From the IMG/VR virus record IMGVR_UViG_3300032050_000122: a stretch of DNA of 64,000 bases; one strand, written 5' to 3'. The DNA is from a virus. This document shows, in pieces, positions 570 to 46,539 of this stretch; the stretch's first letter is position 1, and the number at the start of each line of letters is the position of its first letter. The notes beneath the pieces were generated by a model. It made no database searches. It was not told where the DNA came from and saw only the letters and a list, made by a program, of their open reading frames with translations. A program made the translations under genes and the position numbers.

Positions 570-766
570 TTGACACTCCTAGGAGGAATTATTCTATGGA
601 TGAGTTCTTCTTGGTCAGTTTCAGGAATCCGCATAGAAACCTGGGTTTCAGTTACACGTTCAACTATTGAACACTTGACACAGTGTCTGGTTTCAGGCAA
701 TATTCGTAACCGTGTTCTTGAAATTTGTTTCTTGCAAATTTCACAAAATCTTTCAATTGGAATCAT
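566..766 (-). CDS. small C4 zinc-finger protein (DksA/TraR-like)
   Basis: 66 aa with paired CxxC motifs (CEICKK ... CVKC); 4-nt overlap with the downstream gene. Confidence 0.4.
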   Translation of the reverse strand: MIPIERFCEICKKQISRTRLRILPETRHCVKCSIVERVTETQVSMRIPETDQEELIHRIIPPRSVK

Positions 767-963
767 ATAAATTCCTTACCACAAGCAGCACAATACTGTT
801 GACGCTCTTCATCGCGTACAATATCGTGTGGACAATGGCGTTGTAGATCACGCAGGGTTTTGTCAAGATGTCGTTGTTGATTCAGATAGTTCCGTTTAAT
901 CTTTCGTTGTTGAAGCAAGAGTTTCCTGCCCTTGACTCGTGCCTCATGAATCGTCATTGTCAA
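763..963 (-). CDS. hypothetical protein
   Basis: 66 aa ORF, basic and Cys-containing; operon-like 4-nt overlap with the next gene. Confidence 0.3.
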   Translation of the reverse strand: MTMTIHEARVKGRKLLLQQRKIKRNYLNQQRHLDKTLRDLQRHCPHDIVRDEERQQYCAACGKEFI

Positions 964-977
964 ACTCCTTTGAGAAA

Positions 978-1049
978 TGGGACCGGCTGGAATCGAACCA
1001 GCGACCTAGGAATTATGAGTTCCCTGCTCTGCCACTGAGCTACAGTCCC
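978..1049 (-). tRNA. tRNA-Met (anticodon CAT; could also be a lysidine Ile tRNA)
   Basis: Hand-folded cloverleaf: acceptor GGGACUG/CGGUCCC, D-arm GCUC-AGUGGCA-GAGC, anticodon loop CUCAUAA, T-arm GCUGG-UUCGAUU-CCAGC, discriminator A. No encoded CCA. Confidence 0.8.
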
Positions 1050-5616: not shown

Positions 5617-7053
5617 TTACATATACTCGCGTGCCCGAATGAAGTCGATGATTGCCTCGCTCCATCCACTGATGTGGACGAACTTGTTGTAGCCGATTCC
5701 ATTCTCATTGCAACTGATGTTGATGAGATAGTTGGAATCACCGAAGGCGTTTGCCTGAGACGGATCGAGCTTGCTGCCAGGAGTCTGGCAATCTTGCTCG
5801 TCCGTGATGACGATGACGCGGTCAGCCGTTCGCTGTTCCTGATAGACATAGTCCATGACTTGTTTCAGGAAGATGCCACCAGTACCGATTTGGTGCTGGA
5901 GTTGCAACTCACTGAACAGTCGAGACAACTCGAAACCACGCCGAGCCGGAATCTGCATCGTTGCATGACGCCGTGCCGAATCGCTACCGGCGGTAGCATA
6001 GATGACCGGATTTTCGGCGATCTCTTTGACGAGAATCGCCAACGCACCAGCGGCATCAAGACGCGACAGGTCGCTCTTGGCCGAGACCTTGCCCTGAGTC
6101 ATGGACCCCGAGGAATCCACGATCAGAACCGTCTTGCCGGGGAGCTTCGGAATCGTTTGGAGACAGCGAAGCATCATGTCTTCGATCATGTTCTGCCATG
6201 CCGGAACCGCACGGTAAGCCGCGATGAACCGGAAGGGAAGCACACGACCCAAATCAACATGCTTCGAGTACTCGACGACGAGTTCCTTGGCCACGCCGCT
6301 CTGTTCCATGTTGCGGAGATTCCGCAGGAACGCCAACGCACCGAGCTTGCCCTCTCTCATCAGACGCGTGAACGTCTCGCACTTGTCGGCTCCCGCAGAA
6401 AGCTCAACTTCCCAAGTATCGGGAGTCTTGAGAGTGCCTTCTGCCAACTTGTGGTAGAGGGAATCGGTGTGTCGTAGCAGGGACTTGGAGTGACCGTCTT
6501 TGTAAGTACGGTGCTTGATGGTGGCGGGGCCAACGTCAGCCGGTTTCGGATGACAGAGGAACATGGCGTCCCGGAGTTTGACCGCTCCATCACGATTATA
6601 CTTAGCCAAGGCGTACTCATTGAAGTTCCCGAAGGCTTTCGCCAGTCCTTTCTTGACTTGGGCAGAAATCGGGCACTTGCCATCTTTCCAGTAGATGGCA
6701 AGGAATTCTGCCAACTCGTCAGCACGCTGGATGATTTCCGGGAGCAGGTCTTTCACCAGTCCCTTGTGGCTATCCAGCCGAGCCATTTCACGTGCAATCA
6801 ACAACGGTACGTGCCGCAGTTTCTGATTCGTTCGGGCGTCGATCGCCATGTTCGCGACCTTCTGCGGATCGACCTGTTTGATGAGGCTCGCAATCCGCTT
6901 GGCGATCTTCTCGCCAGTTTCGTAGAACGTGTCTTCCCACAACATGCACGCCATCACGGATCGCCGAAGTTGTTCTTCGGGACTGACGTTGCTGGCGATT
7001 GCTCCGCCGTGGGTACGCTTGACAAGCTTGGGTGCCTTCACATTCGTCTTCAT
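5617..7053 (-). CDS. rsr: Ro60/Rsr ortholog (TROVE domain plus vWA domain)
   Basis: TROVE-like N-terminal region (HGGAIASN..., LRDAMFLCHPKP resembling the Ro60 LRLSHpKP motif) and C-terminal vWA domain with the Ro60-type MIDAS LIVDSSGSM. Start chosen at MKTNVKAP because of the strong RBS (AGGAGAgcatcATG); the ORF track extends to 7170. Confidence 0.75.
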   Translation of the reverse strand: MKTNVKAPKLVKRTHGGAIASNVSPEEQLRRSVMACMLWEDTFYETGEKIAKRIASLIKQVDPQKVANMAIDARTNQKLRHVPLLIAREMARLDSHKGLVKDLLPEIIQRADELAEFLAIYWKDGKCPISAQVKKGLAKAFGNFNEYALAKYNRDGAVKLRDAMFLCHPKPADVGPATIKHRTYKDGHSKSLLRHTDSLYHKLAEGTLKTPDTWEVELSAGADKCETFTRLMREGKLGALAFLRNLRNMEQSGVAKELVVEYSKHVDLGRVLPFRFIAAYRAVPAWQNMIEDMMLRCLQTIPKLPGKTVLIVDSSGSMTQGKVSAKSDLSRLDAAGALAILVKEIAENPVIYATAGSDSARRHATMQIPARRGFELSRLFSELQLQHQIGTGGIFLKQVMDYVYQEQRTADRVIVITDEQDCQTPGSKLDPSQANAFGDSNYLINISCNENGIGYNKFVHISGWSEAIIDFIRAREYM

Positions 7054-7241
7054 GATGCTCTCCTGGGATTGACAAAGCCACAGTTCATTGCGAAGCTCAT
7101 GACTTTTATAGTCCATGCTCCACAATTCCTGACCCATGACACTTATGGGTCTAATCATCGCTGCTTCCATTGTCTTATTCTTGTTTCTGCCGGAGTAATT
7201 GCTACTCGACGGCTACCACCGAATTTCTTTGTTAATTCAAT

Positions 7242-8159: not shown

Positions 8160-8280
8160 AATCGACAACAGGGGTTGGTCTTTTGCTCTACCCACTGAGC
8201 TACAATCCATCCCGAGGGACTTCATGGCGGGATTCGAACCCACGACCTAAAGAAGTAACTGTTATCTACGCCACTCTAAT
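8160..8280 (-). ncRNA. candidate YrlA-like ncRNA: box A, then T-arm, hairpin and D-arm (permuted tRNA-like module), then closing stem and box-B-like
   Basis: Minus strand GAGTGGCGTAGATAACAGTTACTTC (8276-8252); T-arm GUGGG-UUCGAAU-CCCGC (8243-8227); hairpin GUCC-cucg-GGAU; GGAUUGUA plus D-arm GCUC-AGUGGGUA-GAGC (8200-8185); CUGUU (8171-8167) pairs with the AACAG of box A. No anticodon arm and no matching acceptor 3' strand. Confidence 0.45.
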
Positions 8281-8409: not shown

Positions 8410-8847
8410 TCATGCTAAGAACACTTCTTGATTCCAATAGGAAGGAACAATTTGTTCTTGAAGGTTCTTATGCATTGCCAAAATTGTGTTGACCGGTACC
8501 TTGTGCGTATTTCTACGCATTGCACGACTAACCGGACACATGTGGTACTTGATCACGTAATCGTGGCCTAATGCTTGAGCGATTCTGACATATGGAGCTA
8601 GTTCCATGAGAGTTGTGTTTGTGTTATCCACAATAAAAAGTGGACAGCGTTTCTCAACGAAGACCGCCGAGATGTAACAACGCAAACACCAATCATGAGC
8701 CTCACCCGCACGCTTAGGGTCGTACTGGTAAATACCATTGACTGTGTGAAAGTCATCAGCCGAGAAGATTTCACAATCTTCACCAGCATAGTTCTTCACA
8801 TAAGTTGATTTACCTGACCCAGGCAATCCTCGCATGATCCAGATCAT
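8410..8847 (-). CDS. P-loop kinase (polynucleotide kinase-like, AAA_33 type)
   Basis: 145 aa starting MIWIMRGLPGSGKSTYVKNY (Walker A) and resembling the T4 Pnk kinase domain N-terminus; RBS AAGGAAAG precedes the ATG. Confidence 0.65.
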   Translation of the reverse strand: MIWIMRGLPGSGKSTYVKNYAGEDCEIFSADDFHTVNGIYQYDPKRAGEAHDWCLRCYISAVFVEKRCPLFIVDNTNTTLMELAPYVRIAQALGHDYVIKYHMCPVSRAMRRNTHKVPVNTILAMHKNLQEQIVPSYWNQEVFLA

Positions 8848-15701: not shown

Positions 15702-16234
15702 GGTTTCCTCGATTTAAGCGTAGATTTACTTACAGCGCAGAATGGTTCTGCACAAAGGGGCCGAATCATTTTTCATTTAGGATTTGGTCACTTAGAGAAG
15801 TGACATCCTTAGCTCTTGTCCTAAGAGCCATGATCCAAAACATCCCGCTTTGTCATCGGACGTTGCTAAGCAACTTCTTCGCAGAGCCAATCAGGTCGGA
15901 TAGTGTGGATGTCGTTACAGCGGGCTTCCGTCTCGCTAATCTTCTCGAAGATAGACGAGCCAGGTATGGCCGCTTTCATCACACTGTTGACCATTTGAAA
16001 TTTTTGGCCAATCTTGAACTCACTGAACGGTTTTTGCAATCGCCTACGAGCCGGTGAATCCATTGATCCTCTCCCCCAGGATGCCTGAGTATTGACTCAT
16101 GGCGATATGCTGGCGAACCAGCTGATCGCGTTCGAGTTCGGACAGCTTGTCGTATTGGCTGCCCATCATGTAGCGGTGCAGCATTTCGATTCGCAAGTCC
16201 AGTTCACGTTTTTCTTCAACGAGCGTTTCCATAA

Positions 16235-17206
16235 TCAGTAGCTCCTGCAAATGGCGTCAAATTCCTCGTCACGCATTCCCATCGACTGTTGGTCGAGAGT
16301 CTTGCAGCGGGCTTGCGATTGCTCAAGGGTCATGTTGCGGAAGATATGGTCACTGTGGACAATATCCCAAATCTCTTGAGCCAGAGCAAACGTATGCCAC
16401 TGGAAGGTCTCACTGATTCGCAGCCGATGTTCGGCAATCCGAATGCTCGGTTTGATGCCACCCGGCTTGCAAACCAGTTGGTCAATCGCGGTGATGAAAT
16501 CGCTGCCGACTTCGTTACCGCACAACCAACCGTAAATTGCAAGCTGAACAGCCCAACTCTCGTTGAGTTCTTCGAGACGTTGGTCACGGTTAATCATCAT
16601 TCCATGATGCATGGCTGGGATGCAGTTCTTGTGTGGGCCAGTGAAATCGGCACCACGAATCCGCAAGTAACCCGGCATCGGACTGATTCCCGACTTGCTA
16701 CAGTAGCCATTCACCTTGAAGTCCAAGGTGACATTGATTCCGCTTTTGTGGTTGAAGGACACGTCCGGTTTACCCAAGAACGTGACCCCTGACACACTCT
16801 TCGTGACGCCTTCTTTTTGTCCATTGACCACGCCACGAACTTCGATTTCAAAACGCGGTGTACCAACCGCTTGTTCCAAATCCGACATTAGGTCAGCCAA
16901 CGCACCTGAGTGCTTGTAGCAATCGAAAGCGTGACGACCGTTGTCCCATGCCCAGTCCCAATGGTGTCGTTCGACCTGAGCTTCAAAGAGCGTTCTCAAA
17001 TCGAAACGAGGGTCATTGCCTTTACCGAACAACGCTTCGTGCATCCAACTCTTCACGTAAGCATCGAAGGCGGACCCGATCGACATTGGCTGAGTTTGCT
17101 TGTCTCGTGTTGGACGATTCTCAGACAGGTATCTGAGGTAATAGTCCTCGGCGTTCTGCTTGAATGCTGCGATGCTCGTCGGGCTGAGGTACTCAAGTTT
17201 CCTCAT
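16235..17206 (-). CDS. putative PD-(D/E)xK-type nuclease
   Basis: 323 aa; candidate catalytic GKPDVSF ... LDFKVNGYC (D...D/ExK). Confidence 0.4.
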   Translation of the reverse strand: MRKLEYLSPTSIAAFKQNAEDYYLRYLSENRPTRDKQTQPMSIGSAFDAYVKSWMHEALFGKGNDPRFDLRTLFEAQVERHHWDWAWDNGRHAFDCYKHSGALADLMSDLEQAVGTPRFEIEVRGVVNGQKEGVTKSVSGVTFLGKPDVSFNHKSGINVTLDFKVNGYCSKSGISPMPGYLRIRGADFTGPHKNCIPAMHHGMMINRDQRLEELNESWAVQLAIYGWLCGNEVGSDFITAIDQLVCKPGGIKPSIRIAEHRLRISETFQWHTFALAQEIWDIVHSDHIFRNMTLEQSQARCKTLDQQSMGMRDEEFDAICRSY

Positions 17207-17840
17207 TGTTGCTCCTTAGGAATCGGTTCTTGATGACATCGAAGATACGGCTTGCAGTCACGTAGTGTATACCCGTCTTTTCCTGAATTTCCCTAAAGGT
17301 ATAACCCTGACACTTCAAGTCGAAAATCTTTCGTTCCTCTTCCGTCAAAACAGCAAGCTGAATCTCTTCATCAAGAATCATCTTACGGAGCGGACTCATC
17401 TCTCTGCCAGCCACTTCCCGGTTGGGCAGAATCTTTTTGTCTTCTTGTCCAATCACATACCTCGCATGGGTTGATAGCGGAATCAACCGATCTCGATGTA
17501 TGAACCGACCACACGCTTCGTGCATCCGGTAGGATACAAACTTTCCAAAAGAATCAGTTTTCATTTTTTCAACGTCGTGACAGGCTTTAACCAAAGCAAG
17601 AGCAGCTTCACTTACAAGGTCTTTCGATTTCTTTGGTTCTAAAGCTCCGTAGCATCCAGCGATGTACACGACCAGTTTCAAGTGTCCTGTTACAATCTCT
17701 TCGATGACACTCTTATCCCCAGCCTTGAGCTTGACTACCAGTTCGTCTAATCGTTCCTTGGTAATCTTAGGCGAAGGAACTTTGCTGAATGGATAACGAA
17801 TCGAACACGGCCTTGTCTTCTTACCAAGTAGGAACATCAA
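17193..17840 (-). CDS. sigma-70 family sigma factor (phage-encoded)
   Basis: 215 aa; region-2-like DLVSEAALALVKACHDV and C-terminal region-4 HTH YTFREIQEKTGIHYVTASRIF. Confidence 0.6.
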   Translation of the reverse strand: MMFLLGKKTRPCSIRYPFSKVPSPKITKERLDELVVKLKAGDKSVIEEIVTGHLKLVVYIAGCYGALEPKKSKDLVSEAALALVKACHDVEKMKTDSFGKFVSYRMHEACGRFIHRDRLIPLSTHARYVIGQEDKKILPNREVAGREMSPLRKMILDEEIQLAVLTEEERKIFDLKCQGYTFREIQEKTGIHYVTASRIFDVIKNRFLRSNNEET

Positions 17841-17923
17841 CCTCCTTCTTAGCGTTCCTTAGCTGGGCTTTCCGTAATCCGTTTAATTCCTATTCCTAAG
17901 TCTCCGATTCGGAATCTGGCAGG

Positions 17924-17946
17924 AATCAAATCGCCGATTTGATTCT
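17924..17946. promoter_or_regulatory. palindrome GAATCAAATC-gcc-GATTTGATTC (operator or parS-like), copy 3
   Basis: Perfect 10-bp inverted repeat; same half-sites as the palindromes at 37035 and 37318. Confidence 0.5.
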
Positions 17947-18208
17947 TGCGAGTTTCGCCTAGTTCACAAAAGGAACAGGGCGCGACCGTTTCGAGATGTC
18001 AACCGAACCGAACCGAATTAGACCATAAAACGGGCGCACTGTGCAAGAGGAATTGAGCAAGGAAAACGCATTTTCTGGGAAATTTTTGCGCAACCGTGCG
18101 CAACCTCTTTCGCGTTAACGTGTTACGTTCATTTCAAAAAGCAACGCGCTGCCCATGGCGCGAAAAATTACCTAAGAAGTTTCCCCTATAGGTAGTTTTC
18201 CAATGTAA

Positions 18209-18667
18209 TCAAATCGGTGGATAACTCCATTTCGATTTGATTCGGTAGTAAGTTTGGATTTGGAAATCGTCTAACGTCGTTAGACGCCCACCACTCGGAT
18301 CCAAAACCTTACCGTTCACCCATGCAATCGCATGACGCTGCCCATTGATTTCGCCAGTCAAGACACCATTGCTACCGTCAAGAATTTTTTCAAACGGTAG
18401 ATGAATCTCAACAGGCCCACCTATGCCACCGGGACTCTCAAGCATGGCAATCGGTTCGTATGTCGTGGTCACGAATCCTAACCTATCCCCAAGGTAGATT
18501 AACTCTTGAGGGTGGAAACCTCTGCGACAGTTTGGTTCAGTAAGATTCGGCCAGCGTATCTCGCTACCATCATGGCCAATGGCTTTGATGACAGACCAAG
18601 TAGGCCAGCCGATAACATAGGACCAAGCTGTTGGCAGACAGGACCAGCGATTGGGTTGGTAGGTCAT
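18209..18667 (-). CDS. hypothetical protein (possible Cys/His peptidase)
   Basis: 152 aa with candidate Cys (CLPTAW) and His (GQRHAIAWVNG) motifs; weak. Confidence 0.35.
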   Translation of the reverse strand: MTYQPNRWSCLPTAWSYVIGWPTWSVIKAIGHDGSEIRWPNLTEPNCRRGFHPQELIYLGDRLGFVTTTYEPIAMLESPGGIGGPVEIHLPFEKILDGSNGVLTGEINGQRHAIAWVNGKVLDPSGGRLTTLDDFQIQTYYRIKSKWSYPPI

Positions 18668-20101: not shown

Positions 20102-20365
20102 TCACTTCTTGATCAGAGCCAGGATGGCATTGATCACGGTTTGCAAATCCAACTTCTGGCCAGAGAACAGACTGAGAACAAGCGGCAAGAGAACCGCCAA
20201 AATCGTCACCAATCCGACGCCCTGAGCTTGTGCCTGCTTGACGGCTTCACTGAGCTTTGTCTCGGCGTCGCGACCGTACTGGTACGCAACGCTCTTCAAA
20301 AGCATTCGCAGCGTTCCCTGTTGATTTGCACCGACGACACCTGCAAGGTGTTGAGCTTCGATCAT
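20102..20365 (-). CDS. small membrane protein
   Basis: 87 aa with a hydrophobic segment (VGLVTILAVLLPLVLSLF). Confidence 0.4.
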   Translation of the reverse strand: MIEAQHLAGVVGANQQGTLRMLLKSVAYQYGRDAETKLSEAVKQAQAQGVGLVTILAVLLPLVLSLFSGQKLDLQTVINAILALIKK

Positions 20366-21525
20366 TTATCCTTCTCCAAGTAAGTTGCTCCGACACACTT
20401 GAGACACAAGCGTCCCAAGTGAATGTCAGTGCGTTCAACAATCGGTTTGACCACGCAGCCCTCACGATAGTGCTGTGCAATCAAAGATTGACCGTCGCTC
20501 AAGTTCACAACCAGATCGAAGCTGTAATCGTGAACGCCAAGGAATGGCACCCACGGTACATCCGGTGCCGCGTCGCGAGCTTCTTGAGCATTCAGCCAGC
20601 GGCCGTCGTCAAGAATGTCGAACACAGCAATCGAGACTGGCTTGTCTTGAGTGTGGCCGTACTTCAAGGTCTGCACGTTGCCGTAGACTTCACCGTACAA
20701 AATCTTTCCCGGATTATCACGGCACCACTTCTCAATTTCCGGTTCATGGCTCAACGCCGTCCACCACATGTTCCGCGACTTTGTCGGAGAATGTAGGCGA
20801 TCGAAAATCTGTTGACAGCGTTCTTCATCAGGGATGTTTGTGTCCTTGTTCAGAACACGTTCCCGCAACCAATTCATTGTGATATGGTCATAGGTCGGGA
20901 ACTCTTTCTTCCACTCGGTCCGAGAACCACAGTGCATCACACCGTCTTGATAGACGTACCGTGCGTTAGCTCCGTGAATCTTCTCGGTGATCCAAACCTT
21001 CTCGCCAGGAATCAACAAGTGATGATACTTGCGGAAGGCATCGAGATCGTACTTCGGACTGTTGAGGCTTGGAGCCTTGGCAACTTCACCGCCAAGAATC
21101 AAGCCGTTTGCTGCTCGCTGCTCACCTGGCATCGGCGGTTCGTAGTGAGTGACGCCCAACTGCTGAGCAACGTCTTGACCCAAGACGCTACCTTCCGGTG
21201 CCGGAATCATCAGACCAAACGAAACAACACCACGCAGCTTCATAGCCTTGACGCGGTGTGTACCATCAGCCTTGGCTTTTGGCATGAGGAAGTCGAACTC
21301 TTTCCGGTTTGTGTCCACCACCGAATCAGGCGGAAGATACGCACCAAGAGCGACACCTTGCCAGTCTTGGGTTCGGACGATACAGGTGTATCCGCCGAAG
21401 ACTCGAACGATACTGAGCGAATCAGCGTTTGGGTGCTTGGTCAATTCGATTGGCACAATCTCCACCTGATGTGTGCTATTTGACATGGTGCTTACCTCGT
21501 TTGTTGAGTTCCCTGATTTCATCAT
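20362..21525 (-). CDS. ATP-dependent RNA ligase (Rnl2/Rnl5-DraRnl type, KxHG)
   Basis: 387 aa; nucleotidyltransferase motif I ITEKIHGANARYVY (KIHG as in T4 Rnl2) preceded by an N-terminal OB-like domain. Confidence 0.65.
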   Translation of the reverse strand: MMKSGNSTNEVSTMSNSTHQVEIVPIELTKHPNADSLSIVRVFGGYTCIVRTQDWQGVALGAYLPPDSVVDTNRKEFDFLMPKAKADGTHRVKAMKLRGVVSFGLMIPAPEGSVLGQDVAQQLGVTHYEPPMPGEQRAANGLILGGEVAKAPSLNSPKYDLDAFRKYHHLLIPGEKVWITEKIHGANARYVYQDGVMHCGSRTEWKKEFPTYDHITMNWLRERVLNKDTNIPDEERCQQIFDRLHSPTKSRNMWWTALSHEPEIEKWCRDNPGKILYGEVYGNVQTLKYGHTQDKPVSIAVFDILDDGRWLNAQEARDAAPDVPWVPFLGVHDYSFDLVVNLSDGQSLIAQHYREGCVVKPIVERTDIHLGRLCLKCVGATYLEKDK

Positions 21526-24194: not shown

Positions 24195-24671
24195 CTAAAT
24201 GTGTGACCAATTCTTACGACTGAGTATTAAAGAAATCGTGATGTAGTTCACATTGAACATTCTTCCTAGAGCGGCTTTAGACATAGTTCCTTCTAGCTCA
24301 CGAATCTTCAAAACTTCTATCTCAGTCAATTTCGCTTGACTATGGTTCTCACCACGATTATCTTTGCGGCCAGTTTGAAAAGCATGAATTATATTCTCAG
24401 AAACAGTTCCAAGAAATAAATGTTCTGGCTTTACACAAATCGGGTTTTCGCACTCATGACAAACTTGCAACTCTCCCGGCTCTTTATGGTAATGAAACCA
24501 ATAAGAGAATCGAGAGGCTATGTAATTGACACGATCAATTGTTATTGTGCCATAGCCGTCTCGATTCGGTCTACCTAACCAAAGCCAACAATCTTCTGTC
24601 TTACTGACATTGGCCCAATACGTCACAATCGCTTTTGGCGTTATGAGGGGCATTGGCCTGTAGTAACCCAT
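24195..24671 (-). mobile_element. HNH homing endonuclease
   Basis: 158 aa; CWLWLG...DGYG...HECENPICVKPEHLFLGT, typical of the phage HNH_3 family. Confidence 0.65.
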
Positions 24672-30562: not shown

Positions 30563-30953
30563 CTGGCTTCACCTTGAGCTTCAAGGATTCGTGGTCCGAT
30601 TGCAGATTCGCATGAGTCAAGGTCAATGCCTTGTGTTCATTTTGAATCTTGTCGAAGACCGCTTGCCAAGTCTTCTGGTCTTTGTCGGCTTGTTCCTTGA
30701 CAAGTTGGACTTGCAACTCGGCTTTCTCGCTCGCAGCCCGAAGATTCAAAATCTCGGTCTTGAGCTTCTCGTTTTCATCTTGCAGCTCTTTCAGCTTCGG
30801 AGTCGCAGTACCATCCACTGTTGCCTTGGTCACTTCATCGACCAGAACATCTGCAAAATCTTCACAGAGTTGTACATCCATGAGCTTGCGTTTGTTGTTC
30901 GTGCGGGTCCAGATTCGAGCGGCAATGCCGCGTGCTTCATCCATTGTCAACAT
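30549..30953 (-). CDS. hypothetical coiled-coil protein
   Basis: 134 aa. Confidence 0.4.
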   Translation of the reverse strand: MLTMDEARGIAARIWTRTNNKRKLMDVQLCEDFADVLVDEVTKATVDGTATPKLKELQDENEKLKTEILNLRAASEKAELQVQLVKEQADKDQKTWQAVFDKIQNEHKALTLTHANLQSDHESLKLKVKPDEVV

Positions 30954-31755
30954 TACGTGGTTCTCCGTTGAAGGAAGGATATTCTTCCTTTAGGGACTTA
31001 AAGAGTTCTTCCGTGCTAATGACACCAGATGTCCAAGCTAACGTCCGTGTAGCAATGTTCGGACCAACAGAGTCCGTAATCAAGTCTTGGACTTCAAACA
31101 TCTCTCGCATGTTGCGAACAACTTTGGCCTTCTGGTCAGAGGTTATGACGCTCTTCTTTGGTGTGATTGCGACATCAAGACTCTCGCCACGGAGCTTCGC
31201 CTGTTTGATCTTGACCACAGTGTCGATCCGGCCTTGCCGAGATGGAATCTCATGCAAGGCTTTGATCTGGTCCTGTGTTAGGAACCCTGCTGCGATTTCC
31301 AATTGAATGTCGGGTTCAAGATCGAGGATCAAGTAACGAGTTGTCACCCAGCCGGTGGACTGACCCACACGCTTGGCAACTTCCCGCAACTGCAATCCTT
31401 TATCCCTGAACCACTTGATTGCCTGAGCTTCCTGGAACATGTTCAAGTCTTTGCGTTCCAGATTCTCGATGAGATTCAAGGAACGAGCTTGATCTTCGGA
31501 CAAGTCCCGAATCGTACCAGGAATGTGGGTCCACTTCAACAGCTTGCAAGAGTAGAGGCGACGGTGACCCACGACCATCATGTACTCGTAGCCGTCCTTG
31601 TTGTAAGGACGAACTACGATAGGTTGCATGAGTCCATTCTCTCGAATGGACTCGACAATCGTTTGCACGTCAATCGGTGCAAGCTTTTGATGACGACAGT
31701 TCCAGTTTTCCTCGTCGGAAAAGATTTTCTTGATTTCAAGCTGTTGTACTTGCAT
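30937..31755 (-). CDS. ParB-like nuclease domain protein
   Basis: 272 aa; N-terminal ParB/Srx fold with VVGHRRL. Confidence 0.6.
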   Translation of the reverse strand: MQVQQLEIKKIFSDEENWNCRHQKLAPIDVQTIVESIRENGLMQPIVVRPYNKDGYEYMMVVGHRRLYSCKLLKWTHIPGTIRDLSEDQARSLNLIENLERKDLNMFQEAQAIKWFRDKGLQLREVAKRVGQSTGWVTTRYLILDLEPDIQLEIAAGFLTQDQIKALHEIPSRQGRIDTVVKIKQAKLRGESLDVAITPKKSVITSDQKAKVVRNMREMFEVQDLITDSVGPNIATRTLAWTSGVISTEELFKSLKEEYPSFNGEPRNVDNG

Positions 31756-32198
31756 TAAGTGCCTCGTTTGTTCAATGCCTGAATCTCTTCACAGAGAATG
31801 TCTCGCAAAGCCTGATCCCTTAGAGGCACAGGATTGAATCTATCGTAGTCCTTAAAAGTATCAAGAAATTCAAATAGTATTTTCGCCTGCTCGATTTTAA
31901 TAATCAAATAAGGTGAAATACGATTCAAGAAATTTCTTAATTCTTCTCGTTGAACATCCCATTGCCAAGATTCTTTTCTATTTCCTCTTAAATCTTTCCT
32001 GGATCGAGGAGTGCCAATTCCAGTAATAACTACCAAGTAGTCCATTAACTTGTAGTTAGTATTGCTGATTGCCACAAATGGTATATAAGGAATTGCATGG
32101 GTTACTTTTTGTGGCTTCTGCCTACAGATTGTGATAGTACCTTCACCATCAATCAATCCAGCAATATAAGCAGCTTGGTTGTCTGTGATGTTTTTCAT
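31755..32198 (-). mobile_element. free-standing LAGLIDADG homing endonuclease
   Basis: 147 aa with AYIAGLIDGEGT. Confidence 0.65.
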
Positions 32199-36003: not shown

Positions 36004-36978
36004 TTACGCAGCCGCGACAGGAGCATTCAGCTTGGCGACTTCTTGCGCCGCTTCCTGAGCCTTGCGTTGAGCACGTTCGGCCGCAGCCTGAACGCGTTCC
36101 GCTTCGGCCGTCTTCTTGCGTTGTTCGTCCTTGGCCTTGGCGGCTTCGATCGAACGATTGTCAAGATGCACGGCGTACTTGAGGCCGAGAAGGAATCCTT
36201 CTTCGGCGGTCTTGATTCCAGCTTCACGACAAAGCTGGGGTCCGATGACCGGCGTCTCAAGCTCTTGCTTGATTTCGGCGGTCTTGCGGGCACGGGCGAC
36301 GGCGACGAAGCCTTCCGGATTCGCAGCGCGACCTTGACGACGGGCCTTGTCGAGTTCTTGCTTGCGGGCCTGAACGGTTCCGCCGAACTCTTGAGGATTC
36401 ATCGACTGGGCGCGATCAATGAACGCGGCCTGTTCGTCTTCCGGCAGCTTGGCCAGGACGTAGGCGTTGCTCAGGTTGATTTTGCCACCATCGACGAGGG
36501 CACCGACGGCTGCCGTCAGCTTCGTGAGGCCGAGGCGTTCCTTGAGCCACGTGTCGCTCTTGTGCAACTTCTGAGCCATCTGGCTGAAAGTCGTCAGAGG
36601 ATTGCGGCCCATGAGACGCTGGAGAGCCTTGCTGTACTCGACAGGCTTGGTCTCGATCTTGTGGATGTTACCGAGAATCTGCGCTTCCTCGACTTCGGCG
36701 TCGCTCATCGAGCGAACCTGGGCGGGAATCGTTTCCTTGCCGGCGTCGAGCGACCCGGTGTAACGATGCAGACCTTCGATGATTCCGTAGAACAGTTCGC
36801 CAGTGGTGGCGTCCTTCACTTCGCGGACGAGGATGGGATTCAGGATGCCGACATCCTTGATGGAATCAACCAACTGAATGTACTCGACATTCGTGCGGTT
36901 GACACCACGCAACGCAACCGGATTCTCGCGAATCTGGCTGAGCGGGATGTGCTTCAATTGGGTCAACTCATTGGACAT
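36004..36978 (-). CDS. ParB-like partition/DNA-binding protein
   Basis: IPLSQIRENPVALR ... GILNPILVR ... GLHR (ParB N-domain) and an Ala/Glu/Lys-rich C-terminus; start at MSNELTQ with GGAG RBS. Confidence 0.65.
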   Translation of the reverse strand: MSNELTQLKHIPLSQIRENPVALRGVNRTNVEYIQLVDSIKDVGILNPILVREVKDATTGELFYGIIEGLHRYTGSLDAGKETIPAQVRSMSDAEVEEAQILGNIHKIETKPVEYSKALQRLMGRNPLTTFSQMAQKLHKSDTWLKERLGLTKLTAAVGALVDGGKINLSNAYVLAKLPEDEQAAFIDRAQSMNPQEFGGTVQARKQELDKARRQGRAANPEGFVAVARARKTAEIKQELETPVIGPQLCREAGIKTAEEGFLLGLKYAVHLDNRSIEAAKAKDEQRKKTAEAERVQAAAERAQRKAQEAAQEVAKLNAPVAAA

Positions 36979-37034
36979 GGAACAAACTCCAGAGTGTGTT
37001 GCGATTCGTCGATCGCAGGTTGAAAATCGTTCAC

Positions 37035-37055
37035 GAATCAAATCTGATTTGATTC
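37035..37055. promoter_or_regulatory. perfect palindrome GAATCAAATC-t-GATTTGATTC (parS or operator-like), copy 1
   Basis: Located 57 bp upstream of the ParB-like gene start within a 300-bp dyad-symmetric divergent region. Confidence 0.5.
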
Positions 37056-37317
37056 ACGGTGAAGCGGAACAGCCTCATATAGCATGGTCCGAAATGGCGT
37101 TTCTTGTTTCAACAATTCCGGCGGAACTCGCCTATTATAATGGCGCGTTTTGCGCCCTACTAATTTCTTCCTTTCCCTTACTCTCTTATAGCGAAGCTAG
37201 TTAGAACGGTTTGCATTAAAAGAGTAAGGGAAAGAGGGAAAAAATAGTAGGTCAACAATTCTTGAAACAATTTCGCCCGTTTCGGACCATGCTAATTAGA
37301 CCGTTCCGCTATCTTGT

Positions 37318-37338
37318 GAATCTAATCAGATTTGATTC
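37318..37338. promoter_or_regulatory. palindrome GAATCTAATC-a-GATTTGATTC (one mismatch), copy 2
   Basis: Just upstream of the primase-polymerase start; flanks the large inverted repeat centred near 37190. Confidence 0.45.
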
Positions 37339-37355
37339 GTAAATGGAGGATTCCT

Positions 37356-40058
37356 GTGCTGAGAAGCGAAGCAATCAAAAAATTGCTCGTTGCTAAAACC
37401 CATGCTGACCTAGCAGAAATGTATTCCAAAAACATGGAAGTTCAATTCAACGTCGCACAAGATGGTGGCGACCGGATTGAGGAAGATTTCAAAGGGCGAA
37501 CACTCCACAGTTATACCGATGGTATTAACAAGTGGAGCCACTTTCGGATTCCGCGTAATGCGAAGACCGAACCCGAAGATAATGATTGCCCCGTATACGG
37601 GGACATCTATCAACATGCCGAAGGCGTTGGCATGACGGGTTGGGACTGGCAGAATCGCTTGAGCCGATGGGTCGCCTACGATTTCGACGCCATGACAGGT
37701 CACTCGGATAAGCACGAGAAGAAGATGACCGACGAGGAGCTTCAACAACTCCGAGAAGTAGTATCCGCGATTCCGTGGGTCACTATCCGATTATCAACGT
37801 CAGGCAAGGGTATCCACCTGTACGTGATGCTTGACCCAGTACCCACGCAGAATCATACGGAACACGCCGCCCTCGCTCGGGCGATTCTTGGGTTGATGGC
37901 TTCGATTACTGGCTATGATTTCCAATCGAAGGTTGACACCTGCGGCGGTAATATGTGGGTCTGGCATCGTAAGATGACCGGCACCAAAGGATTATCCGTC
38001 GTAAAGCAAGGAACGATTCTTACGGACATTCCACAGAATTGGCGTGATCACATTCGCGTCGTGAGTGGTGCGTCGCGTCGCACGTTGCCTGCATTCGTTA
38101 CGGAGAACAGCGAAGCGAATCCGAATCTTGAAGACATGTTTGAGGAAGTAACTGGCACGAAGACTTTGATTCCGCTCGACAATGAACACAAGCGATTAAT
38201 CGCTTTCATGCACGAGAACAGATGTTGTGCCTGGTGGGATCAAGATCATCACATGCTTGTCACGCACACGGTACACCTACAAGAAGCTTTCAACAAGCTG
38301 AATCTTAAGGGAGTGTTCAAGACAAATGCGAAAGGTGAAAATTACGGCCAAGACCATAACTGCTTCGCTTATCCACTTAGAAGGGGTGCTTGGGCAGTTC
38401 GTCGGTATACACCGGGGGTTGCCGAGGAATCGACGTGGGATCAAGATGGGCAAGGATGGACTCGATGCTACTTCAATCGAGAACTTGATCTCGCAACTGC
38501 GTGTCGCGCATTCAATGCTAATGAAGATGAGAGCGGAGGTTATGTCTTTCGAGAAGCAGAAGTTGCAGCCAAAGCCGCAACTCTCCTTGGAATCGACCTT
38601 GGCATCCCTTCCTGGGCTAATACTCGATCCGCCCTGATTAAAAAGGGCAAGGATGGAAAGTACATTGCTCAGATGGACGCGACCGAACATGATGACCCAC
38701 GAGAGATGACCCAATGGAATCGTAAGGGGAAGAAGTGGTCACGTGTCTTGAGCGGTAAAGCAGAGGTTGCACCCGAGACTGAGGGTCGTAACTATGACGA
38801 AGTTTGCCGGCATATAATCAGTTCGGCCCATTCCAATTTGGGCTGGCTGTTACGTGCAGAGAAAGAATGGATTGACGAACCATTGAATCATGTGTCCATT
38901 GGCTTGAAAGGAATCGTCGGCAAGCAAGCTCTTGTAGATACGATCCTAGGCGAAGCGGCTCTCAAGCCGTGGAAAATCGTGTGCAGACCGTTCGAGCCTG
39001 AGTATCCCAAGATCGCGGGTCGTGTGTGGAATCGGAACGCACCACAATTGCGATTCCGACCCACGAATGCGGACACGCTCTCGTATCCGACATGGCTCAA
39101 GATTCTTACACATTGCGGTAAGAGTCTGAACGAACCAATCAAAAAGAATAACTGGGCCAAGAGTGCAGGTATTCTTACTGGTGCTGATTACTTGAAGGTA
39201 TGGCTCGCATCGCTATTTCAAGAGCCGCTGTGTCCATTACCTTACTTGTTCTTTTATGGGCCACAAGATAGTGGTAAATCTATCTTCCATGAAAGCATCA
39301 GGAATTGTTTGGTTACGTCAGGCGTCGTGCGTGCGGATACAGCCCTGATTAATCAGCAGGGTTTCAATAGTGAATTGGAAAAAGCTGTTCTGTGTGTCGT
39401 TGAAGAAACGAACATGAAGAAGAACAAAGTGGCCTATAATCGAATTAAGGATTGGGTCACTTCCGAAGAGCTTCCTATTCACCCGAAGACAAAGACACCC
39501 TACAGTGTTCTTAACACAACACACTGGGTGCAGACGGCGAATGAGGCAGACGCCGTACCTGTGATGGAAGGTGACACCCGAATCGTTATGGCTTATGTCG
39601 ATGAGCTTTCTCCTACGGATAAAATTCCTAAAAAGATTCTCATGCAAAAGCTGATGAAGGAAGCACCTGACTTCATCGCAGAGTTGTTGCGAATTCAACT
39701 TCCAGATTCTAACGACCGTTTGAACGTGCCAGTGATTGCAACCGAGGAAAAGATCAGGGCACAGCAAGCGAGCCAGAGCTATCTTGATATGTTCTTGGCT
39801 GAGCGTTATTATCATGTTCCTGGCGAAACGATTCTGTTCAAGCAACTCGTTGAAGAGTTCCATGAATGGTTGCCGGGTAATGAACGTGATAACTGGATGA
39901 TGAAAACTATTGGAGAATCGTTGCCGGATAAATACGTTAAGGGACGTAGTACGTCCACTAACCAAGTTATCGTTGGTAACATCTCCAAAAACAAAGATGC
40001 AAAGCCAGGCAAGGCTTTGGTTATTCGCAACGAAAAACTCGTACCATCGGAGACCTAA
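37356..40058 (+). CDS. primase-polymerase (AEP prim-pol) fused to a D5/SF3-like P-loop helicase
   Basis: N-terminal prim-pol motif TIRLSTSGKGIHLYVML; C-terminal Walker A YGPQDSGKS; GTG start with GGAGG RBS (track start 37332 is a TTG). Confidence 0.7.
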   Translation: MLRSEAIKKLLVAKTHADLAEMYSKNMEVQFNVAQDGGDRIEEDFKGRTLHSYTDGINKWSHFRIPRNAKTEPEDNDCPVYGDIYQHAEGVGMTGWDWQNRLSRWVAYDFDAMTGHSDKHEKKMTDEELQQLREVVSAIPWVTIRLSTSGKGIHLYVMLDPVPTQNHTEHAALARAILGLMASITGYDFQSKVDTCGGNMWVWHRKMTGTKGLSVVKQGTILTDIPQNWRDHIRVVSGASRRTLPAFVTENSEANPNLEDMFEEVTGTKTLIPLDNEHKRLIAFMHENRCCAWWDQDHHMLVTHTVHLQEAFNKLNLKGVFKTNAKGENYGQDHNCFAYPLRRGAWAVRRYTPGVAEESTWDQDGQGWTRCYFNRELDLATACRAFNANEDESGGYVFREAEVAAKAATLLGIDLGIPSWANTRSALIKKGKDGKYIAQMDATEHDDPREMTQWNRKGKKWSRVLSGKAEVAPETEGRNYDEVCRHIISSAHSNLGWLLRAEKEWIDEPLNHVSIGLKGIVGKQALVDTILGEAALKPWKIVCRPFEPEYPKIAGRVWNRNAPQLRFRPTNADTLSYPTWLKILTHCGKSLNEPIKKNNWAKSAGILTGADYLKVWLASLFQEPLCPLPYLFFYGPQDSGKSIFHESIRNCLVTSGVVRADTALINQQGFNSELEKAVLCVVEETNMKKNKVAYNRIKDWVTSEELPIHPKTKTPYSVLNTTHWVQTANEADAVPVMEGDTRIVMAYVDELSPTDKIPKKILMQKLMKEAPDFIAELLRIQLPDSNDRLNVPVIATEEKIRAQQASQSYLDMFLAERYYHVPGETILFKQLVEEFHEWLPGNERDNWMMKTIGESLPDKYVKGRSTSTNQVIVGNISKNKDAKPGKALVIRNEKLVPSET

Positions 40059-42033: not shown

Positions 42034-42543
42034 ATGTACAAACCAATTACAGGTTGGTCTATCGAACATTTGTTCAAATTTTGTGGCAAAATCCAAAAGA
42101 CTGATTTTCATTGGCTCTGGACTGGGACCATCTGTAAAAGAGATGGCTATGGCATATTTACTATTAGGAACAATAATTATTATGCTCATAGAATTTCTTG
42201 GTTTGTACACCATCAAGAAGACCCTGGAGTTAACTTTGTACTGCACAAAGTTGATTGTCATTTACGACTTTGCATAAACCCAAATCATTTATATTTGGGT
42301 TCAAAATCGGACAACAATTTTGATCGTACTTTGAATGGAACTAACATCCAACAAGGAAGTTTTAATGGCAATACTAAATTCTCAGATGAAAACATCTTAG
42401 ATATTAGACACCGTTATCAGGCAGGAGAAACACAAAAGTCACTTGCTAAATTTTATGCTGTACACAAGTGTACTATTTACAGAATCGTAAATAACATAAG
42501 ATTTGCAACTGTTGGAGATAAAACAAAATGTCTCACAAACTAA
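42034..42543 (+). mobile_element. HNH homing endonuclease
   Basis: HWLWTG...DGYG...HR.SW...CHLRLCINPNHLYLG; paralogous to the HNH gene at 24195. Confidence 0.65.
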
Positions 42544-44247: not shown

Positions 44248-44319
44248 GCTAGCATAGCTCAATGGTAGAGCAGCTGTTTTGTAAGCAGCCGGTTGGGGGT
44301 TCAAGTCCCTCTGCTAGCT
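44248..44319 (+). tRNA. tRNA-Thr (anticodon TGT)
   Basis: Perfect acceptor GCUAGCA/UGCUAGC, D-arm GCUC-AAUGGU-AGAGC, anticodon loop UUUGUAA, T-arm GGGGG-UUCAAGU-CCCUC. Confidence 0.8.
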
Positions 44320-44331
44320 CTGGAGGTATCT

Positions 44332-46536: not shown

Positions 46537-46539
46537 CGT

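What the first reader, a model, noticed from the sequence alone, without database searches (positions are those of the whole stretch)
17841..18208. 370-bp noncoding hub upstream of the sigma factor gene with several repeat types
The region contains the GAATCAAATC-gcc-GATTTGATTC palindrome, the tandem pentamer AACCG x3 (about 18000-18020), a direct repeat TGCGCAACC x2 (18088-18106) and the palindromes CGTTAACG/AACGTG-TTACGTT. Dense repeats ahead of a regulatory gene suggest an early promoter or operator cluster, or an origin.
Basis: seen in the sequence. Interest (0 to 1): 0.5.

Follow-up and report, generated by a model that had tools for sequence, protein, structure and literature searches.

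The report
Promoter-operator region of phage sigma gene
The 368-bp gap is a real, conserved control region for a phage sigma-factor operon, with a host-type promoter flanked by two copies of a palindrome that also flanks the phage's ParB/primase control region; it is an ordinary kind of element with a previously undescribed motif.

Summary
It lies upstream of a real sigma-70-family gene on the minus strand. Only some of the repeats matter. Comparison with five related phages shows these conserved parts:
- A palindrome over the stop codon of the upstream gene (S2, 18206-18243).
- Terminator-like hairpins.
- A sigma-70-type promoter: TTGCAC, 18 nt, then TGgTCTAAT. The hexamers are conserved and the spacer is free.
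- The palindrome GAATCAAATC-N3-GATTTGATTC (S1, 17923-17945), about 65-87 nt downstream of the predicted start.

The AACCG x3 repeat, TGCGCAACC x2 and CGTTAACG are not conserved beyond the closest relative.

The core AATCAAATC occurs 7 times in 64 kb against about 1 expected. All copies sit at two loci: this one, and the divergent ParB/primase intergenic region at 37 kb. Across about 90 related loci, probably from Planctomycetota phages, the motif is 20-fold enriched upstream of the primase gene.

Best reading: a host-RNAP promoter with operators for a phage-encoded DNA-binding protein that co-regulates the sigma and replication modules. The binder is unresolved; the orphan ParB is the lead suspect. 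An origin at this locus is not supported.

The parts
18209..18667 (-). Upstream 152-aa ORF of unknown function. Its last codons carry palindrome S2.
   Evidence: ORF list. Homologues sit immediately upstream of the sigma locus in all relatives. No Pfam, NCBIfam or PHROG hit.
18206..18243 (.). S2: TAATCAAATC-N18-GATTTGATTC palindrome over the stop codon (18209-18211) of the 152-aa ORF.
   Evidence: Across relatives the GATTTGATT arm is read in three different reading frames (P-I-stop, D-L-I, R-F-D-S). In L124 the first arm was lost by synonymous changes and a compact AATCAAATC-CG-GATTTGATT sits just downstream. Selection is therefore on the DNA sequence, not on the protein.
18163..18205 (-). 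Hairpin AAAACTACCTA...TAGGTAATTTT with A-tract and T-tract flanks; terminator-like.
   Evidence: Inverted repeat I14. It is part of a three-hairpin fold with z=-3.69. The TTAGGTAATTTTTCGCGCC block is largely conserved in the 5 sequences.
18135..18162 (-). GC hairpin CGCGCC-loop-GCGCG followed by TTGCTTTTTG; intrinsic-terminator-like.
   Evidence: Terminator scan. In L001 the stem is kept despite a 7-nt loop insertion, but the T-run is not conserved.
18087..18105 (.). Direct repeat TGCGCAACC x2, about -77 to -95 from the predicted transcription start.
   Evidence: Conserved only in the closest relative L001, which has a third, inverted copy. Not conserved in L124-L126. Not enriched in the window.
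18067..18083 (-). Partly conserved block ATTTCCCAGAAAATGCG (near-palindrome ATTTTC-CA-GAAAAT in relatives), upstream of the -35. Possible UP element or activator site.
   Evidence: Alignment A4. Mean identity 0.69 for the wider 18060-18086 stretch that contains this block, against 0.64 for the upstream part of the intergenic region (18047-18205) and 0.66 for all of it.
18017..18046 (-). Predicted promoter of the sigma operon: -35 TTGCAC (18046-18041), 18-nt spacer, TG (18025-18024), -10 TCTAAT (18022-18017). Predicted start near 18010.
   Evidence: Pattern match. Conservation over 5 phages: -35 0.90, TG 1.0, -10 0.97, spacer 0.57. The same element is found in L122, L124, L125 and L126, and a consensus TTGACA-N17-TATAAT sits at the same place in L123.
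18001..18017 (.). Tandem pentamer AACCG x3.4. It overlaps the predicted start and the first transcribed bases.
   Evidence: TRF. Not conserved: L001 reads TGCGT TTCGG TTCGC, and the repeat is absent in L124-L126. Identity 0.61.
17923..17945 (.). S1: GAATCAAATC-GCC-GATTTGATTC palindrome in the predicted 5' untranslated leader, about +65 to +87.
   Evidence: The arms are 1.0 and 0.96 identical over 5 phages, while the spacer varies in sequence and length (GGC, GGC, GCC, AATA, GCGT, read on the sigma-coding strand).
17835..17861 (-). Ribosome-binding region AAGGAACGCTAAGAAGGAGG-TTG-ATG. A predicted small hairpin encloses the Shine-Dalgarno sequence and the start codon.
   Evidence: Conserved at 0.86. 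Fold. AAGGAACG aligns with the last codons of an extra ~111-aa gene present in L126 and L013; reading it as a remnant of that gene is inference.
17193..17840 (-). Sigma-70-family gene. The likely start is the ATG at 17837.
   Evidence: Thirteen homologues of 59-90% identity.
37035..37055 (.). S3: GAATCAAATC-T-GATTTGATTC, 57 nt upstream of the ParB1 start.
   Evidence: The exact palindrome occupies the same position in five divergent phages, with spacers of 0, 0, 1, 2 and 2 nt.
37318..37338 (.). S4: GAATCTAATC-A-GATTTGATTC, 18 nt upstream of the likely GTG start of the primase/helicase gene.
37030..37343 (.). A 310-bp imperfect palindrome, bounded by S3 and S4, that fills the ParB1/primase intergenic region.
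   Evidence: Nested inverted repeats of 49, 38 and 32 nt at 78-80% complementarity. The central part is 37.5% GC.
36004..36978 (-). ParB1, an orphan ParB-family protein (ParB_N plus HTH_ParB). Candidate binder of the motif.
   Evidence: Pfam, TIGR00180 above its cutoff, PHROGs. It is divergently paired with the primase gene in 79 of 107 related loci.
37332..40058 (+). Primase/helicase with a DUF5906 (D5-like) domain. Alternative candidate binder. The likely start is the GTG at 37356.
   Evidence: Pfam. 257 relatives in viral contigs.

Best explanation
The gap is the transcription-control region of the sigma-factor operon. Read on the minus strand, it runs in this order:
1. The upstream operon ends in hairpins that look like terminators.
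2. A host-type (sigma-70) promoter with an extended -10 (TTGCAC-N18-TGgTCTAAT) starts transcription near 18010.
3. The ~170-nt leader carries the palindrome S1.

S1 and its partner S2, about 290 bp upstream over the stop codon of the preceding gene, bracket the promoter. They are operators for a phage-encoded, sequence-specific DNA-binding protein. The same 9-10-bp half-site, (G)AATCAAATC, brackets the divergent ParB1/primase promoters 19 kb away (S3 and S4, 283 bp apart). One factor would therefore set the expression of three operons: sigma, ParB1-leftward and primase-rightward. It would probably act by repression, either as a roadblock or by bridging the two flanking sites.

Shown: the sequence elements, their conservation, selection at the nucleotide level, the genome-wide restriction to two loci, and the family-wide distribution.

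Inferred: promoter activity, protein binding, the sign of regulation and the identity of the binder. The orphan ParB1 acting like KorB is my first choice at about 0.3; the primase/helicase or an unidentified small regulator come next.
For: Promoter:
- The -35, TG and -10 are conserved at 0.90, 1.0 and 0.97 over five phages whose sigma proteins are 72-90% identical. The spacer is conserved at 0.57 and the whole intergenic region at 0.66.
- The more distant L123/L013 has a perfect TTGACA-N17-TATAAT at the same place.

Operator motif in this locus:
- The S1 arms are invariant while the spacer changes in sequence and length.
- The S2 arm is kept in three different reading frames and is rebuilt in L124.
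- The layout S2, ~170-190 nt, promoter, ~60-75 nt, S1 recurs in 5 phages, and in a sixth S1 is reduced to one degenerate half-site.

Distribution of the motif:
- AATCAAATC occurs 7 times against 1.09 expected, all at these two loci.
- The 111.8-kb relative has exact palindromes only at the S1, S2 and S3 equivalents.
- In 93 related loci, hits with up to 1 mismatch occur at 2.39 per kb upstream of the primase gene against 0.12 per kb elsewhere.
- Some family members use variant motifs at the same positions, such as CATCACATC, CATCCCATC and AATCATATC. That is expected for a co-evolving phage-encoded binder.

DNA site versus local RNA hairpin:
- Many family members have only single half-sites, always oriented GATTTGATT towards the adjacent gene (9 of 9). 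This argues for a DNA half-site as the functional unit.

Candidate binder:
- ParB1, which has an HTH, is the conserved neighbour of the sites.
Against: - There is no experimental transcription start and no binding data.
- Half-site spacing and orientation vary widely across the family (start-to-start 10-39 nt; inverted on the ParB side, mostly everted on the primase side). That is unusual for a rigid dimeric repressor or a canonical ParB-parS pair.
- Neither the ParB1 HTH nor any primase segment changes with motif class. For example, L095 uses GAAACCAAACCA yet has nearly the same recognition helix as an AATCAAATC phage. The binder therefore remains unidentified.
- The distances between paired sites show no helical phasing; I worked this out by hand from the positions, not with a tool.
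- S1 lies far downstream of the predicted start for a classical operator.
- The promoter pattern is found only once in the window, so no promoter class could be defined.
Confidence: 0.6

Rival explanations
1. Bipartite replication element. The half-sites are iterons for the primase/helicase initiator. The 37-kb palindrome next to the primase gene is the origin, and the S1/S2 locus is a second cis-acting replication site, like ori plus crr of satellite phage P4, or a secondary origin primed by the sigma promoter transcript.
For: - The sites lie next to the initiator-type gene in about 90 loci.
- Half-sites in variable orientation and spacing resemble iterons.
- A large palindrome with a lower-GC centre lies between S3 and S4.
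- The cumulative GC skew reaches its minimum at 33-36 kb.
- From my own knowledge, not from a paper read here: P4 alpha protein binds repeats at two separate loci.
Against: - The 18-kb locus has no AT-rich unwinding block (46.5% GC; the lowest 40-nt stretch is 32.5% and lies in a hairpin) and no skew change.
- The skew minimum coincides with the switch in gene strand, so it is not independent evidence.
- No primase segment co-varies with motif class.
- At every locus the sites bracket promoters and sit in leaders, which fits transcription control better.
Confidence: 0.15
2. RNA-level element. S1 and S2 act as AU-rich stem-loops in transcripts. S2 together with the downstream hairpins would be a 3'-end stabiliser or terminator for the upstream operon. 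S1 would be a 5'-leader hairpin recognised by an RNase III-type enzyme or an RNA-binding regulator.
For: - Variable spacers of 0-29 nt are natural for hairpin loops.
- The 18260-18100 minus-strand RNA folds into three hairpins with z=-3.69.
- S1 lies in the predicted leader and forms a 10-bp stem in the minimum-energy fold.
- A terminator-like hairpin follows S2.
Against: - The arm sequence is invariant, with no compensatory changes inside the AATCAAATC class.
- Many relatives carry single half-sites about 300 nt apart that cannot form a local hairpin, and L125 keeps only one arm of S2.
- The leader as a whole folds no better than shuffled sequence, z=-0.65.
- There is no U-tract after S1 or S2.
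- There is no Rfam match.
Confidence: 0.12
3. Host-factor site. The motif is bound by a host nucleoid or architectural protein, for example an IHF-like factor, since the first six bases AATCAA match the WATCAA core. That protein would bend DNA at the edges of the phage control regions.
For: - The motif is unchanged across phages whose ParB and primase proteins are only about 45-60% identical.
- No phage-protein segment co-varies with motif class.
- Asymmetric half-sites occur in variable arrangements.
Against: - The second ATC of the motif is as invariant as the first, and the TTR part of the IHF consensus is absent at all four sites.
- Closely nested family members use different motifs, such as CATCACATC and CATCCCATC.
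- The host is only inferred to be Planctomycetota, and no host site data were available to test this.
Confidence: 0.08
4. Nothing functional beyond a promoter. The palindromes are leftovers of the inverted duplication and recombination that shuffle genes at these junctions. An extra gene is present or absent right next to S1 in different relatives.
For: - A gene is gained or lost between S1 and the sigma gene (L126 and L013 have it; the window, L001, L124 and L125 do not).
- There are indels throughout the region.
Against: - The arms are 100% conserved against about 60% for flanking noncoding DNA.
- The motif is preserved across three reading frames and rebuilt in L124.
- It is 20-fold enriched family-wide at one specific location.
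Confidence: 0.05

Closest known systems
KorB-OB system of IncP plasmid RK2 (a ParB-family global repressor with 12 dispersed palindromic operators)
   Same: - A ParB-family HTH protein is encoded next to one of the sites.
- A few identical palindromes are dispersed over the replicon, at or near promoters of replication and regulatory operons, some tens to hundreds of bp from the start.
- No ParA was found beside ParB1, so a regulatory role is more plausible than partition.
   Different: - OB is a fixed 13-bp palindrome. Here the half-sites are separated by 0-29 nt, can be everted or single, and each half-site is itself a 5-nt direct repeat (AATCA-AATC).
- ParB1 carries EGLHRY where canonical CTP-binding ParB proteins have GERRxR; this was read from the sequence and not tested.
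- No HTH-motif co-variation was found.
- Binding is untested.
Dispersed SopB centromere sites IR1-IR4 of the linear plasmid-prophage N15
   Same: A phage genome with four copies of one short palindrome scattered over the genome and bound by a ParB-family protein. The central bases of the N15 palindromes also vary (PMC7205306, Table 4).
   Different: - The N15 sites are 7-8-bp arms with a fixed 2-nt centre and serve partition together with SopA.
- Here no ParA was found, the spacers vary widely, and the sites come in pairs that bracket promoters at just two loci.
Paired operators that bracket a promoter (gal OE/OI, ara O2/I1, lambda OL/OR looping)
   Same: Two identical dyad sites flank the promoter, one upstream and one inside the transcribed leader, a few hundred bp apart: S2 at about -200 to -230, S1 at about +65 to +87, centres 290 bp apart. 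S3 and S4 are 283 bp apart.
   Different: - The distance is larger than in gal or ara and is not kept in helical phase among relatives (330 bp in L001).
- The regulator is unknown, and looping is pure inference.
ori/crr iterons of satellite phage P4 bound by the alpha primase-helicase
   Same: Short repeats in both orientations next to a D5-type primase/helicase gene, plus a second cluster kilobases away.
   Different: - The second cluster here sits in a promoter and leader region of average GC content.
- No evidence of replication function could be obtained.

Membership tests
Bacterial sigma-70-type promoter with extended -10 | -35 hexamer resembling TTGACA | tested here: met
   TTGCAC (4 of 6) at 18046-18041. 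It reads TTGCAY in 5 phages and TTGACA in L123.
Bacterial sigma-70-type promoter with extended -10 | -10 hexamer resembling TATAAT, 16-18 nt downstream, with TG one base upstream | tested here: met
   TCTAAT (5 of 6), 18-nt spacer, TGg immediately upstream. Conservation is 0.97 for the hexamer and 1.0 for TG. The tool's default scan missed it because the -35 pairing scored below its threshold.
Bacterial sigma-70-type promoter with extended -10 | Hexamers conserved while the spacer sequence drifts among relatives | tested here: met
   Spacer identity 0.57 against 0.90-1.0 for the hexamers and TG.
Bacterial sigma-70-type promoter with extended -10 | Mapped transcription start or in vitro transcription by host holoenzyme | not testable with these tools
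   Needs 5'-RACE or dRNA-seq. The host is uncultured or unknown.
Repressor operator (dyad-symmetric protein-binding site) | Dyad symmetry with conserved arms and a free centre | tested here: met
   10-nt arms are perfect in S1. The arms are invariant and the spacer variable across 5 phages.
Repressor operator (dyad-symmetric protein-binding site) | Several copies at the promoters of a regulon | tested here: met
   Four palindromes lie at two control regions covering three operons, and nowhere else in the 64 kb.
Repressor operator (dyad-symmetric protein-binding site) | Identified cognate DNA-binding protein | tested here: inconclusive
   ParB1 and the primase are the conserved neighbours, but no segment of either tracks the motif class.
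ParB-parS / KorB-OB | ParB-family protein with ParB_N and HTH domains encoded by the replicon, near a site | tested here: met
   ParB1 starts 57 nt from S3. A second paralogue, ParB2, is at 30937-31755.
ParB-parS / KorB-OB | Site is a fixed-geometry 13-16-bp palindrome | tested here: not met
   Spacers between the arms are 1, 1, 3 and 18 nt in the window and 0-29 nt in the family. Everted and single half-sites also occur.
ParB-parS / KorB-OB | Partner ParA ATPase (for a partition role) | tested here: not met
   No ParA-type domain was found in the ORFs flanking ParB1 or in the roughly 50 of about 95 candidate window ORFs that I scanned. The window is only part of the genome.
ParB-parS / KorB-OB | DNA-binding residues co-vary with site sequence | tested here: inconclusive
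   Only one class-specific conserved position (E208Q) was found, and the recognition helix varies within a single motif class.
Iteron-type replication origin | Repeated initiator sites beside an AT-rich unwinding element | tested here: not met
   For the finding's own region: 46.5% GC and no AT-rich block. For the 37-kb region the test is partly met, with a 37.5% GC centre.
Iteron-type replication origin | Strand-composition inflection at the site | tested here: not met
   The cumulative GC skew runs through 18 kb without inflection. Its minimum is at about 33-36 kb.
Described structured RNA (Rfam: riboswitch, leader, sRNA) | Match to a covariance model | tested here: not met
   Nothing reaches a gathering threshold. 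The best permissive hits have E of 1.9-5.
Intrinsic terminator (end of the upstream operon) | GC-rich hairpin followed by a T-run | tested here: met
   18162-18145 plus TTGCTTTTTG. The stem is kept in L001 but the T-run is not.

The most novel reading that the evidence does not exclude
The AATCAAATC half-sites would be the dispersed binding sites of an orphan ParB-family protein with an unusually flexible site geometry: each half-site is a 5-nt direct repeat, and half-sites are usable singly, inverted or everted. That protein would act like KorB as the master switch of a large, uncultured family of probable Planctomycetota phages, tying expression of the phage sigma factor to the replication module. 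Alternatively, the two loci would form a P4-like bipartite origin.
Probability: 0.25. Interest if true: 0.55.

Novelty: new member of a known kind. Interest (0 to 1): 0.35.

Why it matters
This gives a concrete, testable map of how an uncultured family of large phages may switch on its own sigma factor. At least 257 viral contigs belong to the family, and its hosts are probably Planctomycetota. The map consists of a host-type promoter plus a shared 9-10-bp motif that links the sigma operon to the ParB/primase replication module.

The motif is also a handy family marker. Its natural variants (CATCACATC, AATCATATC and others) are a ready-made series for working out which protein reads it.

In kind, though, this is ordinary phage regulatory DNA.

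Tried and rejected
- **Nucleotide search of isolated phages.** No match. A protein search with the primase found only remote hits. No cultured relative exists to borrow annotation from.
- **Rfam.** Nothing at gathering or permissive thresholds.
- **A missed gene in the gap.** No ORF longer than 44 aa, and indels are not multiples of three. Some relatives (L126, L013) do have an extra ~111-aa gene between S1 and the sigma gene.
- **The 18-kb hub as a diverged copy of the 37-kb hub.** Local alignment scores of 45-48 fall within the shuffled range (mean 33, maximum 61). Only the palindrome is shared. The shared GTCTAATT and CGCCCGTTT words are not significant.
- **GANTC (CcrM-type) methylation sites.** Position 1 of the motif is variable (G in 54 of 149), and GANTC is not enriched in the region.
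- **Specificity-determining residues in ParB1 or the primase.** No convincing signal.
- **Helical phasing of paired sites.** None; this was checked by hand from the positions, not with a tool.
- **The motif as a promoter element.** Its distance to the start codons (18, 57 and 95 nt) and the sequence downstream do not fit either a -35 or a -10 role.
- **Other copies of the sigma-promoter pattern in the window.** None.
- **Metagenome-wide scan for the palindrome.** Only 6 of 120 loci belong to this phage family, all at the two known positions. The rest appear unrelated.
- **Literature search.** Found no description of this family or motif.
Full report
**1. What is in the sequence**

The region 17841-18208 lies between two minus-strand ORFs: a 152-aa ORF (18209-18667) and a 214/215-aa ORF (17193-17837/17840).
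- A profile of 14 homologues hits region 2 of SigA and RpoD structures, E=2e-7.
- TIGR02937 gives E=8.9e-11, at 41.7 bits just under its 42.9-bit cutoff.
- PHROG 351 'RNA polymerase sigma factor' gives E=1.3e-12.

- The palindrome at 17923-17945.
- AACCG x3.4 at 18001-18017.
- TGCGCAACC x2 at 18087-18105.
- The small CGTTAACG and AACGT...ACGTT dyads.

The gap is noncoding. It has no ORF over 44 aa, relatives differ by 7-, 13- and 20-nt indels, and there is no Rfam match.

**2. The palindrome is part of a four-copy, two-locus motif**

- The core AATCAAATC occurs 7 times in the 64-kb window against 1.09 expected; 0 of 100 shuffles reach 7.
- These seven half-sites, plus one with a single mismatch, form four dyads:
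  - S1, 17923-17945, 3-nt spacer.
- S2, 18206-18243, 18-nt spacer, over the stop codon of the 152-aa ORF.
  - S3, 37035-37055, 1-nt spacer.
  - S4, 37318-37338, 1-nt spacer, one mismatch.
- S3 and S4 bound the divergent intergenic region between an orphan ParB-family gene (ParB1, 36004-36978, minus strand) and a DUF5906 primase/helicase gene.
- That intergenic region is itself a 310-bp imperfect palindrome.
- S1 and S2 are 290 bp apart centre to centre; S3 and S4 are 283 bp apart.

**3. Relatives and what they conserve**

No isolated phage is related at the DNA level. Sequence searches found these relatives of the sigma locus:
- A close relative with about 86% DNA identity (IMG/VR 3300022173_000112; L001, L122).
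- A distant one with about 69% identity (3300014489_000001; L013, L123).
- Three more sigma-locus relatives whose sigma proteins are 72-83% identical (L124, L125, L126).

The five-way alignment of the sigma-upstream region (A4) separates signal from noise. Identity to the window over the five sequences:

| Element | Identity |
|---|---|
| S1 arms | 1.0 and 0.96 |
| S1 spacer | 0.6 (GGC, GGC, GCC, AATA, GCGT, sigma-coding strand) |
| -35 TTGCAC | 0.90 |
| TG | 1.0 |
| -10 TCTAAT | 0.97 |
| 15 of the 18 spacer bases | 0.57 |
| Ribosome-binding region | 0.86 |
| Whole intergenic region | 0.66 |

The other repeats do not hold up:
- AACCG x3 is already broken in the closest relative and absent in the others.
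- TGCGCAACC x2 is kept only in the closest relative.
- The small CGTTAACG-type dyads are not kept.

**4. Selection acts on the DNA sequence of S2**

The GATTTGATT arm lies in the last codons of the 152-aa gene. Relatives read it in three different frames: CCG ATT TGA (P-I-stop) in the window, GAT TTG ATT (D-L-I) in L124 and L126, and CGA TTT GAT TCA (R-F-D-S) in L013.

In L124 the first arm has been erased by synonymous changes in R-I-K-S. A compact AATCAAATC-CG-GATTTGATT sits a few codons downstream instead. The C-terminal peptide is free to vary, but the DNA motif is not.

**5. A conserved layout**

On the sigma-coding strand, six phages share this order:
1. End of the 152-aa gene, carrying S2.
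2. Hairpins. In the window these form a three-hairpin fold with z=-3.69, and one of them scores as a terminator.
3. About 170-190 nt further on, a sigma-70-type promoter. It reads TTGCAY-N17/18-TGGTCTAAK in five phages and the consensus TTGACA-N17-TATAAT in L123.
4. After a further 60-75 nt, S1. In L123 it is a single degenerate half-site, GATTCGATT.
5. The first gene of the operon.

In L126 and L013 an extra ~111-aa gene lies between S1 and the sigma gene. The window appears to keep only its last codons; that reading is inference.

The predicted start is near 18010. This places S1 at about +65 to +87 and S2 at about -196 to -233. It also places the non-conserved AACCG repeat over the start site.

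**6. The motif is a family trait**

- The primase/helicase has 257 relatives in viral contigs.
- Its relatives in genome bins are almost all Planctomycetota, several on megabase contigs. The host is therefore probably in that phylum; this is inference.
- ParB1 is the divergent neighbour of the primase gene in 79 of 107 loci.
- In 93 loci, (N)AATCAAATC with up to 1 mismatch occurs at 2.39 per kb in the 650 nt upstream of the primase gene, against 0.12 per kb elsewhere. Positions 2-10 are nearly invariant.
- Sites cluster at both ends of the intergenic region. On the ParB side they are usually inverted, on the primase side usually everted, with start-to-start spacings of 10-39 nt.
- Nine members have one half-site per side. 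In all nine it is oriented so that GATTTGATT reads towards the adjacent gene.
- Other members carry different motifs of the same style at the same places: CATCACATC, CATCCCATC, AATCATATC, AATCGAATC and GAAACCAAACC. Each half-site is two direct 5-nt units.
- These variant-motif phages are no more distant than AATCAAATC phages are from each other.

**7. Mechanism**

The evidence fits a host-RNAP promoter flanked by binding sites for a sequence-specific DNA-binding factor. The same factor would also flank the ParB1 and primase promoters, coupling sigma expression to the replication module.

Three things point to double-stranded DNA half-sites rather than a local RNA hairpin:
- The arm sequence is invariant.
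- There are no compensatory changes within a motif class.
- Single half-sites appear to be sufficient in many members.

The shift of motif between related phages points to a phage-encoded reader. ParB1 is the obvious candidate by association and has an HTH domain. No ParA was found beside it, which favours a KorB-like regulatory role over partition.

I could not confirm this. The ParB1 recognition helix varies within one motif class and is nearly identical between classes. No primase segment tracks motif class either. The variable geometry of the sites also departs from canonical parS and OB sites.

**8. Rivals**

- **P4-like ori/crr pair.** This fits the 37-kb locus better than the 18-kb one. 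The 18-kb locus has average GC (46.5% against 48.8%), no AT-rich block and no skew inflection.
- **RNA-hairpin role.** Variable loops and the strong fold around S2 support it. Single half-sites, invariant arms and an unremarkable leader fold (z=-0.65) count against it.
- **Host IHF-like factor.** It matches only the WATCAA half of that consensus.

**9. Comparison with known systems, and verdict**

The closest analogues are:
- KorB-OB of plasmid RK2.
- The four dispersed SopB palindromes of prophage N15 (PMC7205306).
- Promoter-bracketing operator pairs such as gal OE/OI.
- The P4 ori/crr iterons.

It is not a demonstrated member of the ParB-parS family: the fixed-geometry criterion fails and the binder is untested.

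In kind this is ordinary phage regulatory DNA. The specific motif, its flexible grammar and the phage family are, as far as the searches show, undescribed.

Verdict:
- Novelty: a new member of a known kind.
- Interest: 0.35.

Noticed in passing
window 5617-7170 (-) and 8162-8265 (-): The phage encodes a Ro60/TROVE+vWA protein (Pfam TROVE, E=5.7e-14). About 1 kb away there is a sub-threshold match to the bacterial Y-RNA-like family YrlA (RF02553, 36 bits, E=3.4e-5, gathering score 69). This is probably a phage-borne Ro60/Y-RNA module. It sits among RNA-repair-type genes (AAA_33 kinase 8410-8847, RNA ligase 20362-21525, HAD_SAK_2 44293-44751) and 12-13 tRNA genes.
   Followed up: partly
window 37030-37343: The whole ParB1/primase intergenic region is a 310-bp imperfect palindrome, with nested arms of 49, 38 and 32 nt at 78-80% complementarity and a 37.5% GC centre. 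Long-range inverted repeats occupy the same position in many family members. It is a candidate pair of mirrored divergent promoters, an origin, or both.
   Followed up: partly
window 30937-31755 (-) and 36004-36978 (-): There are two ParB-family paralogues (ParB_N plus HTH_ParB, both above the TIGR00180 cutoff) in one replication module. No ParA was detected in the window ORFs that I scanned.
   Followed up: partly
window 31755-32198 (-), 24195-24671 (-), 42034-42543 (+): Homing-endonuclease-like ORFs (LAGLIDADG; HNH with a CENP-B-type HTH; a weak His-Me finger hit) are interspersed among the replication genes.
   Followed up: no
window 43844-44209 (+): A SpoVG homologue (E=2.6e-20) with an inserted zinc ribbon lies in the tRNA-rich plus-strand block. 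SpoVG proteins bind nucleic acids, so it is one more untested candidate regulator.
   Followed up: no
window 46492-46542: A 24-nt-arm hairpin (88% complementary, 3-nt loop) with A-tract and T-tract flanks sits where the plus- and minus-strand gene blocks converge. It looks like a bidirectional terminator and is the longest local palindrome in the window.
   Followed up: no
L126 2657-2992; L013 about 621-1010 (-): Some relatives carry an extra ~111-aa gene of unknown function between S1 and the sigma gene. The window, L001, L124 and L125 lack it and seem to keep only its last codons next to the sigma ribosome-binding site.
   Followed up: partly
L128-L247 (metagenome loci): The exact palindrome pattern also matches more than 110 contigs unrelated to this phage family, including many human-gut contigs with a recurrent 32-nt total length. 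These are either chance matches or an unrelated element.
   Followed up: no
window 16044-16250 (-): A small ORF downstream of the sigma/nuclease genes matches the crAss001_48 ('Sequestin') family, E=3.5e-11. It is conserved at the same position in L124-L127.
   Followed up: no
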